A stretch of 64,000 nucleotides of DNA, from assembly GCA_009914755.4 (NCBI GenBank), contig CP068257.2:28608001-28672000 (forward strand), read 5' to 3'. The notes beneath the pieces are model-generated. The model made no database searches and was not told the DNA's origin. It saw only the letters and a program-made list of their open reading frames with translations. Made by a program: the position numbers and the translations under genes. How positions within the stretch are numbered: the stretch's first letter is position 1; each line of letters starts with the position of its first letter. This DNA comes from the human T2T-CHM13v2.0 reference genome, Homo sapiens. Shown in pieces: positions 55,235-57,239 of the stretch.

Positions 55235-55693
55235 CTAGCAGTCAGACTCGTAGCTAAGAGGTTGGCATCCATAGAACAGATTTCTTAGGGGTTGATGATC
55301 ATAGGTCAGGTAGCTCAGTGGCTGACGGCCATAGGGAAGGGAGTTCAGTTGTTGACAGCTATCAGATTGGTAACTTGGAAGATGGCAGTTGAAAGGCTGT
55401 CTACAGGATTCTGAATAATAAGAACTGGAACTATGGGATGAGATAGGAAGACAGCTAGTTCCTTGATGGGATATGGACTCATCGGAAACAATCGAAGAGT
55501 AGACAGAAGGGCCGCAGGCACCACACCCTCACCACATGACTTGTGACAGTTGTCATGGCACGTGAGCTCCACAGCTCACCTTAGTTATGCAGAGAGCACT
55601 GGGTGAGGTGACAGGAACCTGGTGGGGATTCCAAAGGGAGTGAGAGCTGTAGTTTTCAAAGCAGAAATTGCCGTTAAGACATAGTGGAGACAG
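55235..55693 (-). pseudogene. KAP24/KAP26-like keratin-associated protein pseudogene: start codon lost (ATG to CTG), two frameshifts and in-frame stops
   Basis: Manual translation of the minus strand gives LSPLCLNGNFCFENYSSHSLWNPHQVPVTSPSALCITKVSCGAHV (frame C, 55693..55556), aligning residue-for-residue with the KRTAP24-1 N-terminus (IPVTSS at the identical register 26-31). The codon aligned to Met1 is CTG (plus-strand cag 55691..55693). A TGA follows at 55553..55555. Homology then continues in another frame (ELTCHDNCHKSCGEG, 55567..55525), and returns to the first frame (GCGACGPSVYSS...SCRQPFNCHLPSYQSDSCQQLNSLPYGRQPLSYLTYDHQPLRNLFYGCQPLSYESDC, stop at 55235..55237). Confidence 0.6.
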
Positions 55694-55766
55694 AAGATCA
55701 AGCCTTGATTAAATTGCAGAGAGCAGGTTGCTGAAGTGTAGTTGTTGTCTATGTGACCTATCGTTT

Positions 55767-55775
55767 CTATATACC
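55767..55775 (-). promoter_or_regulatory. TATA-like box (minus strand ggTATATAg) of the KAP pseudogene, part of a promoter block homologous to KRTAP24-1
   Basis: Minus strand reads ggtatatagaaacgataggtcacatagacaacaactacac..., paralleling KRTAP24-1 ggtataaaacgtccttaggccacagacacactgcac. About 30 extra nt separate it from the former start codon. Confidence 0.4.
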
Positions 55776-57239
55776 CTGAATGCTGGGTGTTGGTTTCCTC
55801 TATAGCCAATATATAGGCTATAGAGGAAATCATTTGTATGACATCTTACTAGAATTTTACTTAATCGCCTACCAAGCAGTCCTCCCACCACCGTATAAAA
55901 TATATATTATCAATATCACATCCTTCAAATAACTGTCATTCCAAAGTCAATCTGGTCTTCCTTGCTTAATCTTTCTTACAGTATAGGTAAACTGCTTCTT
56001 TAGAAATCATGTTCCTTTGTCAGTCTTGACAATTCCTTGAACTCACTGCTAAAAAGCCACAGATGGATCTCCATAATTGGAGAGAATTTCTTTATGGCCA
56101 CTTTTTTTTTCCCACAGAACCAAACTATCTATATATTAACATTTAAAAGTATTAGTGAGATATTTTTAGAAGAGCTAAATAATGAAAATTCTTAATTTGG
56201 AAACTGAACCTTATTTTGCATTCTTCTGAGACATAACCTAGATCCAAAACCTAATTCATCTCTGGAAAATTTGACATCATTTTCAAGTGTGTCTTTCCAA
56301 TGAAGAATGTTGGCCTCAAAAGCTTTGACAAGCTTTGCTAAGATCCACACCCAATGAGCATATAAGTCACTGTTCTATATTTTGTGAGCAAGAAACTGAA
56401 GGTGTTAGCACACATGTTTTGATAGGTGCTGTGTAAGAAAGAGGCCATCTTGCCTTGGATGCTTGCTAGGTAAATCTCAGCATGATATTGCAAATATGAA
56501 GAGAATGCTTATGTTTGTAACCTGTTTCTATATTACTATTTTCCAAGGAATATATTCCTGTACATAAAAGATTTTGAAATAATTCATGTTTTTCTAATTA
56601 GTTTGCTAAGAGAGGCCGTTTAATTTACAATGAAGTTTTTTTTCCAAAGGTACACTTTTTGGTTGATTATTTGGATTCAGAATGTATTTATACATGGAAA
56701 GGAAGTGAAAATTCCTAGACTAGTCTTCCCCAGAGAAACATATTTTTAGCCTAGTAACATAAATGAACTCTACAACTCAATTTTGACCACATTAGGATAA
56801 ATGGATCTTACTACTTCCTTGAGGGGTTTCATTTGAAGGGACTACTTAGATTATGGCACCTCTGAAAATCTGCTTTTGGTAGTACACATTGCGGTGGGAA
56901 AATAGTAGATCTTATCTAGAACAGCATTCCTCCTCCTAGTTCTCAGTGTGAGAGTCATCTTTTTCAATGGTGAAGGAACAAGAGCTGACATTTATGGTTC
57001 AAGCAAATGTAGCCAGAACTCATGATTTGGAGTGCCAAATCTAGTTATAAAGCTCTCAACATAAATTTCCTATGTTTCATTTTTCTTGACTATAAAGTGA
57101 AATAAAATGGGCACATTAAACACCATTTCACCAGTATCTTTAATGATTTAATTTTTTAAATGTATATGAAAGGCTCTGAGCATTATCCACTTAGCATACC
57201 CTGGATGAAGCGGCTTATGCAAATTAGTCTGACTGAGAC

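What the first reader, a model, noticed from the sequence alone, without database searches (positions are those of the whole stretch)
55235..55780. Third KAP paralog is a pseudogene killed by a start-codon transversion, with a compensating frameshift pair and a promoter insertion
About 8 kb beyond the KRTAP25-1 gene, in the same orientation, the minus strand encodes a KAP24/KAP26-like protein whose N-terminus aligns with KRTAP24-1 in exact register (VPVTSP against IPVTSS at residues 26-31). The codon at the Met1 position is CTG (plus-strand cag 55691..55693). Downstream there is a frame switch near 55560 (TGA at 55553..55555), about 35 nt of homology in a second frame (DNCHKSCGEG, matching the DYCQESYGEA block of KRTAP24-1), and a return to the original frame near 55525 (TGA 55529..55531). 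The frame then stays open to a KAP-typical C-terminus ending PLSYESDC* at 55235. The upstream TATA block (ggtatatagaaacgataggtcacatagacaacaactacac) is homologous to the KRTAP24-1 promoter but carries about 30 extra nt before the former start. I cannot tell from memory whether this locus is annotated in the chr21 KAP domain. It looks like a recent loss, since the C-terminal 100 codons are still open.
Basis: partly seen in the sequence, partly recalled or inferred. Interest (0 to 1): 0.7.

Follow-up and report, generated by a model that had tools for sequence, protein, structure and literature searches.

The report
Decayed hair keratin-associated protein gene

Summary
The window is human chr21q22.11: its KRTAP24-1 product is identical to NP_001078924.1. 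On the minus strand at about 55773..54863 lies a complete but dead single-exon keratin-associated protein gene of the PMG family (Pfam PF05287, 42 bits against a cut-off of 29).

It is the positional orthologue of an unnamed subfamily that RefSeq calls "KAP26-1-like" (mouse Q9D6L6/LOC69699, squirrel, beaver, elephant). It is 50-59% identical to that clade, against 36%, 31% and 27% to human KRTAP26-1, 25-1 and 24-1. Its flanks align collinearly with the squirrel and golden-mole loci.

Four details are wrong:
- **Start codon:** the ATG (55682..55680) is intact. The first lesion is a 1-nt insertion that makes ATG-TCT-TAA.
- **Frameshift pair:** these are deletions of 35 and 28 nt (63 nt together).
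- **C-terminus:** the "terminal" TAG is a mutated Tyr codon. Homology runs on about 24 codons through a second TAG.
- **Promoter:** there is no insertion.

Five or six lesions argue against a very recent loss. This is ordinary biology, although the two published KRTAP catalogues I could check do not list the locus.

The parts
54863..55773 (-). Whole relic gene unit: TATA box, 5'UTR, decayed CDS, 3'UTR and poly(A) signal
   Evidence: Collinear DNA alignment with the intact squirrel (L001) and golden-mole (L003) genes and their flanks.
55767..55773 (-). TATA box (TATATAG), preceded by the conserved motif CCAACACCCAGCA
   Evidence: Aligns with TATATAA of squirrel and golden mole. The upstream block is nearly identical in all three.
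55683..55766 (-). Region between the TATA box and the ATG, mostly 5'UTR.
   Evidence: CACACTTCAGCAACCTGCTC...TCTCCACTATG is collinear with squirrel, with a net +3 nt only. The CTG aligns with squirrel TCA, 11 nt upstream of the ATG.
55680..55682 (-). Ancestral start codon ATG, intact
   Evidence: Aligns with the ATG of squirrel L001:10001 and of Logan contig L005.
55674..55676 (-). TAA at codon 3, made by a 1-nt insertion (TAC to TAAC). This is lesion 1 and gives a +1 frameshift.
   Evidence: Human ATGTCTTAAC against ATGTC-TTAC (golden mole, L005) and ATGTC-CAAC (squirrel). Removing one base restores MS(Y/N)GNFCFENYSS, in register with MSNNNCSSENYSS.
55564..55565 (-). Junction of the 35-nt deletion (lesion 2). 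It causes the downstream TGA at 55555..55553.
   Evidence: A 35-column gap in human only, against three orthologues.
55528..55529 (-). Junction of the 28-nt deletion (lesion 3). The TGA at 55531..55529 sits at the junction. 35 + 28 = 63 nt restores the frame.
   Evidence: A 28-column gap in human only, against three orthologues.
55238..55528 (-). 97 open codons of the PMG repeat region (GCGACGPSVYSS...QPLSYESDC), with no Met
   Evidence: Translation. 46-60% identical to 8 representative proteins, all of this subfamily.
55235..55237 (-). TAG, nonsense in a Tyr codon (lesion 4).
   Evidence: Aligns with TAT (squirrel) and TAC (golden mole).
55214..55216 (-). TAG, second nonsense codon (lesion 5)
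   Evidence: Aligns with TAC (golden mole) and GAC (squirrel). Protein alignment...RPISYT*SNFQPY against RPINYTYSTFHPY.
55145..55165 (-). Ancestral C-terminal end. The TGA at 55163..55161 is out of frame by one base and the frame runs on to the TGA at 55147..55145 (minor lesion 6).
   Evidence: Human TTA-TGAAAG against squirrel TTACTGAAG.
54938..55002 (-). (AC)n microsatellite, (TG)n on the plus strand, inside the 3'UTR. Absent from the squirrel and golden-mole orthologues.
   Evidence: Tandem Repeats Finder: period 2, 32.5 copies. The alignment shows a human-only insertion.
54863..54868 (-). AATAAA, the likely polyadenylation signal
   Evidence: Aligns with ATTAAA of squirrel inside a conserved 3' block. 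Its function is inferred.

Best explanation
The feature is an unprocessed, unitary pseudogene. It is the in-situ human orthologue of a single-exon, PMG-family high-sulphur keratin-associated protein gene. That gene sits between KRTAP26-1 and KRTAP25-1 and is intact in rodents (mouse NP_081449.1/Q9D6L6 'LOC69699'), squirrels, beaver and elephant; the golden-mole and lion models are compromised (lost ATG, chimeric model). In those species it presumably encodes a hair-shaft matrix protein of about 185-195 residues; that function is inferred from family membership. In human the gene architecture survives: TATA box, 5'UTR, ATG, 3'UTR and AATAAA. The coding sequence carries at least five disabling lesions: a 1-nt insertion in codon 3 that gives Met-Ser-stop, deletions of 35 and 28 nt, and two Tyr-to-TAG nonsense changes. 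The conserved frame contains no Met-initiated ORF, so no KAP protein can be made. At most the locus could give a non-coding transcript in hair follicles, which was not tested. The loss probably dates back tens of millions of years rather than being human-specific; this is a rough inference.
For: **Shown by tool results**
- Pfam PMG match above the curated cut-off for the repaired translation.
- 4 and then 30 homologues, named KAP26-1(-like), at 40-52% BLASTP identity over 86-97% of the query.
- tblastn E down to 1.9e-35, and only three PMG loci in the window.
- DNA alignments with intact orthologues place the ATG, the +1 insertion, the 35-nt and 28-nt deletions and the two TAGs.
- About 3.5 kb of flanks align collinearly with the squirrel, golden-mole and two Logan loci at roughly 70% identity.
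- The promoter and 5'UTR are conserved. The 3'UTR and poly(A) signal are conserved.
- In a neighbour-joining tree the relic is sister to the Glires clade, with Afrotheria outside and KRTAP26, 25 and 24 separate. Identity is 50-59% to the clade, against 36%, 31% and 27% to human K26-1, K25 and K24.
- The window is human, and the mouse member derives from a cDNA-type record, BAB26773.1.
- No Met occurs in the conserved frame.

**Inferred**
- Age of the loss: P(at least 4 further lesions) is below 0.01-0.03 for 6-10 My under stated rate assumptions.
- No primate member of the subfamily was found, although primate KAP24-1 RefSeq models are in the same database.
Against: - No primate genomic DNA could be obtained, so the age and the order of the lesions are not measured.
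- The branch-wise dN/dS for the human lineage is about 0.46. That is no higher than for squirrel (0.51) or golden mole (0.53), so there is no direct signature of relaxed constraint. The test has little power for a loss younger than about 40 My.
- Transcription was not examined.
- The current reference annotation was not available here, so 'unannotated' rests only on two published catalogues and an NCBI gene list.
Confidence: 0.93

Rival explanations
1. One reading: a recently dead KRTAP24/26-like paralogue, inactivated by an ATG-to-CTG change at 55693..55691, with a small compensating frameshift pair, a 30-nt promoter insertion and an intact C-terminus.
For: - The codons exist where stated.
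- Counting from the CTG, VPVTSP falls at residues 26-31, as IPVTSS does in KRTAP24-1.
- 97 codons remain open.
Against: - Starting at the CTG forces a 4-residue insertion against every orthologue.
- DNA alignments put the CTG in the 5'UTR and show an intact ATG 11 nt downstream.
- TATA-to-ATG spacing equals that of the orthologues.
- The TAG at 55237..55235 aligns with Tyr codons, and homology continues beyond it.
- The lesion count argues against a recent loss.
Confidence: 0.03
2. A still-functional gene that makes a truncated KAP from an internal start, as annotated for neighbouring KRTAP25-1, or by non-AUG initiation or frameshifting.
For: - The TATA box, 5'UTR and poly(A) signal are well preserved.
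- The human-branch dN/dS of about 0.46 is not elevated.
- KRTAP25-1 sets a precedent for a half-gene annotated as coding.
Against: - The conserved frame has no Met between the stops. All ORFs over the locus are 82 aa or shorter, in other frames or with GTG/TTG starts.
- The 97-codon open stretch ends in a premature TAG and has lost the conserved C-terminal SGW(R/Q)Y motif region.
- No human or primate protein of this subfamily appears in the databases searched.
Confidence: 0.03
3. A retrocopy or a recent segmental duplicate of another KAP gene (KRTAP25-1 or KRTAP26-1), rather than an orthologue of the rodent gene.
For: - KAP genes are intronless, so the absence of introns tells nothing.
- tblastn with KRTAP25-1 gives E 3.6e-12.
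Against: - The promoter, 5'UTR, 3'UTR and more than 1 kb on each side are collinear with the squirrel and golden-mole loci.
- There is no poly(A) tract at the 3' end.
- Identity to human K25 and K26 is only 31-36%, against 50-59% to the Q9D6L6 clade. The tree follows the species tree.
- Fused rat and lion gene models place the family gene directly downstream of KRTAP26-1, as in human.
Confidence: 0.01

Closest known systems
Mouse NP_081449.1 / UniProt Q9D6L6 ('uncharacterized protein LOC69699') and the RefSeq 'keratin-associated protein 26-1-like' models of rodents, Chrysochloris and Loxodonta
   Same: - Same subfamily, with 50-59% identity over the aligned length.
- Same N-terminus (MS.N.C..E.YSS), the same QPLSYL repeats and the same C-terminal YRPISYTYSNFQPYSSSLSGW motif.
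- Same promoter and UTR architecture and the same flanks.
   Different: - Those genes have intact ORFs of 173-213 aa.
- The human copy has a frameshift at codon 3, two deletions (35 and 28 nt) and two nonsense codons.
Human KRTAP26-1
   Same: PMG family and same cluster and strand. It is the name that automated annotation gives to the relic's relatives.
   Different: - Only 36% identical.
- It forms a separate clade with rat KAP26.
- It lies about 21.6 kb further on, outside the window (offset taken).
Human KRTAP25-1 (window 47053..47690, minus strand)
   Same: Neighbouring PMG gene on the same strand, and also decayed. Its N-terminal half carries two stops and a frameshift.
   Different: - It belongs to a different subfamily. 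Its full-length orthologues are the 211-aa pinniped proteins (P0029 cluster), and it is 31% identical to the relic.
- It retains a Met-initiated 102-aa ORF and is annotated as protein-coding.
Gorilla 'KRTAP26p' of Khan et al. 2014 (PMC4180150, Additional file 2)
   Same: A KRTAP26-like pseudogene of 558 bp, on the same strand, between KRTAP25p and KRTAP26.
   Different: - It is listed 17.6 kb from KRTAP25p, whereas this relic is 8.1 kb from KRTAP25-1. The total K25-to-K26 distance agrees between gorilla and human to within about 80 bp.
- It is therefore probably another locus, just beyond the window end, or else a coordinate problem. This is unresolved.
Ovine and caprine KRTAP28-1 (Bai et al. 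2019, PMC6523819)
   Same: - It lies between KRTAP24-1 and KRTAP26-1 and has a low cysteine content (8.2%).
- It has a TG dinucleotide repeat. The human relic also has a TG/AC repeat, in its 3'UTR.
   Different: - It is a 408-bp ORF with the repeat inside the ORF, and was reported as unlike other KAPs.

Membership tests
PMG family of keratin-associated proteins (Pfam PF05287: KAP13/15/23/24/25/26/27) | Significant match to the PMG profile above Pfam's gathering score | tested here: met
   Repaired translation scores 42.2 bits, E 1.2e-10, cut-off 29, covering profile positions 4-164 of 180.
PMG family of keratin-associated proteins (Pfam PF05287: KAP13/15/23/24/25/26/27) | Single-exon gene with its own TATA promoter inside the 21q22.11 KAP cluster | tested here: met
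   It lies on the same strand as KRTAP24-1 and KRTAP25-1 in the window. The TATA box and UTRs are conserved with the orthologues.
PMG family of keratin-associated proteins (Pfam PF05287: KAP13/15/23/24/25/26/27) | Intact open reading frame (a functional member) | tested here: not met
   TAA at codon 3, 35-nt and 28-nt deletions, and two TAG codons.
Unitary (unprocessed) pseudogene | Positional orthology to a gene that is functional in other species | tested here: met
   Flanks are collinear with the squirrel and golden-mole loci. The gene tree follows the species tree.
Unitary (unprocessed) pseudogene | Disabling lesions relative to intact orthologues | tested here: met
   Five clear lesions plus a shifted stop.
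Unitary (unprocessed) pseudogene | No intact copy of the same subfamily elsewhere in the genome | tested here: inconclusive
   No human or primate protein of the subfamily appears among 30 hits or 8 representatives, although human and primate KAP24-1 are in the collection. The rest of the genome could not be scanned.
Unitary (unprocessed) pseudogene | No protein product, and transcription absent or non-coding | not testable with these tools
   This needs hair-follicle RNA-seq or CAGE and hair proteomics.
Processed pseudogene (retrocopy) | Promoter lost, 3' poly(A) tract present, insertion at a new site | tested here: not met
   The promoter and both flanks are orthologous. No poly(A) tract follows the AATAAA.
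KRTAP26 subfamily | Clusters with human and rat KAP26-1 rather than with other PMG subfamilies | tested here: not met
   36% identity to human K26-1. It forms a separate clade in the neighbour-joining tree.
   27% identity. tblastn with K24 finds only the C-terminal repeats, at E 2e-5.

The most novel reading that the evidence does not exclude
The relic marks the complete loss, in the lineage leading to humans, of a fifth PMG keratin-associated protein subfamily that is ancient in eutherians and has no name of its own (the mouse Q9D6L6 clade, currently mislabelled 'KAP26-1-like'). It is absent from the published human, chimpanzee, macaque, gibbon and marmoset KRTAP catalogues. Together with the half-decayed KRTAP25-1 next to it, it would document a stepwise erosion of this corner of the hair-matrix gene cluster in primates.
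Probability: 0.5. Interest if true: 0.3.

Novelty: new member of a known kind. Interest (0 to 1): 0.17.

Why it matters
- **Limited biological importance.** Decayed tandem paralogues are common in KAP clusters, where the reported mammalian average is about 19% pseudogenes (PMC4180150).
- **Annotation value.** It adds a unitary pseudogene to the human KAP inventory.
- **Subfamily naming.** It shows that the 'KAP26-1-like' genes of rodents and afrotherians form a separate subfamily with a dead human orthologue.
- **Dated marker.** If the lesions are mapped on the primate tree, it gives one more dated gene loss for studies of primate hair evolution.
- **KRTAP25-1.** It also flags that human KRTAP25-1 is only the rear half of an ancestral gene.

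Tried and rejected
1. **Primate orthologous DNA through KRTAP25-1 with a 10-kb flank.** The exact human KRTAP25-1 product is not on record and not in the collection. The homologue search with it found no candidates. KRTAP24-1 lies too far away (over 14 kb) for the 10-kb flank limit.
2. **Metagenome scan for host-derived relatives.** 71 pattern matches, none confirmed.
3. **Logan contigs L004 and L005 as possible primates.** They are only about 65-75% identical to human, the same as squirrel, so they are not primate.
4. **dN/dS test for relaxed constraint on the human branch.** No excess was seen (0.46 against 0.51 and 0.53), and the power is too low to date the loss.
5. **Ovine KRTAP28-1 sequence.** Figures and the supplement are held only as images, so possible orthology stays untested.
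6. **Literature search for a named KRTAP26-2, KRTAP26P or KAP26.2.** Nothing found. Searches on mouse RIKEN gene names could not be tied to LOC69699.
7. **Gibbon 'second KRTAP26' (Khan 2014) as an intact orthologue.** Rejected: the two gibbon KRTAP26 entries lie 3 kb apart at the KRTAP26 position, not 8 kb from KRTAP25.
8. **Search of 1.84 billion representative proteins with the 97-codon open stretch.** Only 8 hits, at most 60% identical, and none primate-like.

Full report
**Identity of the window.** The window carries KRTAP24-1 (CDS 40803..40039, minus strand) and KRTAP25-1 (annotated CDS 47361..47053, minus strand). The KRTAP24-1 product is letter-for-letter human NP_001078924.1/Q3LI83. 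The sequence is therefore human chr21q22.11.

**Checking the observation.**
- CTG at 55693..55691
- TGA at 55555..55553
- TGA at 55531..55529
- TAG at 55237..55235

DNCHKSCGEG is encoded in a second frame between the two TGAs, and 97 open codons follow. A conceptually repaired translation matches Pfam PMG (PF05287) at 42.2 bits, E 1.2e-10, above the curated cut-off of 29. tblastn of related proteins against the whole window finds exactly three PMG loci:
- KRTAP24-1
- KRTAP25-1
- this relic, at 55154..55678, with a best E of 1.9e-35

The KAP homology is real and the locus is a third PMG gene copy.

**What it is related to.** A database search with the repaired protein returned intact proteins of 183-213 aa from squirrel, golden mole, pocket mouse and hamster. 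They are 41-47% identical over 80-95% of the query. A profile search widened this to 30 proteins. The hits come from many rodents, beaver, elephant, a chimeric lion model and a decayed fin-whale model. Nearly all are labelled 'keratin-associated protein 26-1(-like)'.

The mouse member is NP_081449.1/Q9D6L6/BAB26773.1, 'uncharacterized protein LOC69699'. In a neighbour-joining tree the human relic is sister to the Glires clade, with the afrotherians outside. The clade is separate from KRTAP26 (human, rat), KRTAP25 (human repaired, pinnipeds) and KRTAP24. Aligned identity of the relic is:

| Compared with | Identity |
|---|---|
| Its own clade | mostly 50-59% (46-59%) |
| Human KRTAP26-1 | 36% |
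| Human KRTAP25-1 | 31% |
| Human KRTAP24-1 | 27% |

About 3.5 kb around the relic (57251..53650) aligns collinearly, at roughly 70% identity, with the squirrel (L001) and golden-mole (L003) loci and with two Logan contigs. Rat and lion gene models that wrongly fuse KAP26-1 with this family show the same gene order as in human. This is positional orthology, not a retrocopy or a recent duplicate.

**Anatomy and lesions.** DNA alignments with three orthologous loci, two with intact ORFs (coordinates verified), show the following.

- **Promoter and start.**
  - The TATA box (55773..55767), an upstream CCAACACCCAGCA block and the 5'UTR are collinear with the orthologues.
  - The orthologues' ATG aligns with a human ATG at 55682..55680.
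  - TATA-to-ATG spacing differs from squirrel by 3 nt.
  - The '30 extra nt' exist only relative to KRTAP24-1, which has a much shorter leader.
- **Lesion 1.** Human reads ATG TCT TAA C..., against ATG TC- TTA C... or ATG TC- CAA C... in the orthologues. A 1-nt insertion in codon 3 creates TAA (55676..55674) and shifts the frame. Removing it restores MS(Y/N)GNFCFENYSS, in exact register with MSNNNCSSENYSS.
- **Lesions 2 and 3.** A 35-nt deletion (junction 55565/55564) and a 28-nt deletion (junction 55529/55528) are present in human only. They sum to 63 nt, so the frame returns. The 'compensating pair' is thus correct in effect, but about 21 codons are missing.
- **Lesions 4 and 5.**
  - The TAG at 55237..55235 aligns with TAT/TAC (Tyr).
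  - The TAG at 55216..55214 aligns with TAC/GAC.
  - Human reads ...SDC*RPISYT*SNFQPYLFSLSNWQYTY, against hamster ...DYHRPTSYTYGRFQPYSSCLSGWRYSY.
- **Ancestral stop.** The stop near 55163..55161 is out of frame by one base.
- **3' end.**
  - The 3'UTR is conserved.
  - It contains an (AC)n microsatellite (55002..54938) that squirrel and golden mole lack.
  - It ends in AATAAA at 54868..54863, opposite squirrel ATTAAA.
- **Coding potential.** No Met occurs in the conserved frame, and all ORFs across the locus are 82 aa or shorter and off-frame.

**Age of the loss.** No primate genomic DNA was reachable, so the age is inferred only.
- Branch-wise dN/dS from a three-taxon Nei-Gojobori analysis is about 0.46 for human, 0.51 for squirrel and 0.53 for golden mole. 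The gene was therefore constrained for most of the human branch. The test cannot resolve a loss younger than about 40 My.
- The assumed rates were 0.6-1.5e-9 substitutions per site per year, an indel-to-substitution ratio of 1:8, and 3.7% of substitutions creating stop codons.
- Under those rates, four further disabling events after the first are improbable within 6-10 My (P about 0.0002-0.03). They fit roughly 20-65 My.
- The protein collection holds RefSeq KAP24-1 models for Pan, Pongo, Nomascus, Papio, Rhinopithecus and Cebus. It holds no primate member of the relic's subfamily.

Together these points argue against a 'recent' or human-specific loss. They do not prove it.

**Is it already known?**
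- Wu et al. 2008 (PMC2528016, Additional file 1) list nothing between KRTAP25-1 and KRTAP26-1 in human or chimpanzee, and nothing 8 kb from KRTAP25 in macaque.
- Khan et al. 2014 (PMC4180150, Additional file 2) list nothing there in gibbon or marmoset.
- The same file lists a gorilla 'KRTAP26p' 17.6 kb from KRTAP25p. That position would map just past the window end, not to this relic at 8.1 kb.
- An NCBI gene list for 21q22.11 shows no named KRTAP pseudogene between KRTAP25-1 and KRTAP26-1.
- I could not consult current GENCODE.
- Sheep and goat 'KRTAP28-1' occupies the same interval and carries a TG repeat.

**Verdict.** This is a genuine unitary pseudogene of a PMG keratin-associated protein subfamily, and biologically ordinary. 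It misidentified the start codon, the nature of the indels, the promoter 'insertion', the C-terminus, the nearest relative and probably the age.

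Noticed in passing
window 47053..47690 (minus strand): Human KRTAP25-1 is only the rear half of an ancestral PMG gene of about 211 aa. 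An upstream ATG at 47690 opens the N-terminal half in another frame. That half has two in-frame stops (…SNQR*I*LL…) and a frameshift near 47452. The annotated 102-aa ORF starts at an internal Met. Full-length orthologues exist in pinnipeds (P0029 cluster, one of them named KAP25-1).
   Followed up: partly
window 21419..21757 (minus strand): An ORF matches Ribosomal_L2_C (PF03947, E 1.4e-24). This is an RPL8-like processed pseudogene, probably the RPL8P2 listed for 21q22.11.
   Followed up: partly
window 54938..55002: An (AC)n/(TG)n microsatellite of 32 copies sits in the relic's 3'UTR and is absent from the squirrel and golden-mole orthologues. Ovine and caprine 'KRTAP28-1', found in the same KRTAP24-KRTAP26 interval, has a polymorphic TG repeat inside its ORF, so it may be the ruminant counterpart of this locus.
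   Followed up: partly
just beyond the window end (about 64.7 kb by offset): Khan et al. 2014 list a gorilla 'KRTAP26p' (558 bp) 17.6 kb from KRTAP25p. That does not match this relic's position, so another PMG relic may lie just outside the window.
   Followed up: no
L003:11000..11545 (Chrysochloris asiatica): The golden-mole orthologue has GTG where the others have ATG, and a TAG after ...FSGW. The RefSeq model (P0002) borrows an upstream exon, so this copy may itself be compromised.
   Followed up: no
proteins P0025 (Panthera leo), P0028 (Rattus), P0026 (Balaenoptera physalus): The lion and rat models are chimeras that fuse KAP26-1 with part of this subfamily's gene. The fin-whale model reads the N-terminal region in the same wrong frame as human 'frame 0', which suggests an independent frameshift in whales.
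   Followed up: no
window 40804..40929 (minus strand): The KRTAP24-1 ORF is open for 42 more codons upstream, to an ATG at 40929 (296 aa). The Papio anubis RefSeq model (294 aa) and a Logan representative (296 aa) use this longer form.
   Followed up: no
window 55790..55812 (minus strand): The block GAGGAAACCAACACCCAGCA, just upstream of the TATA box, is nearly identical in human, squirrel and golden mole even though the human gene is dead. It may be a conserved hair-follicle promoter element.
   Followed up: no
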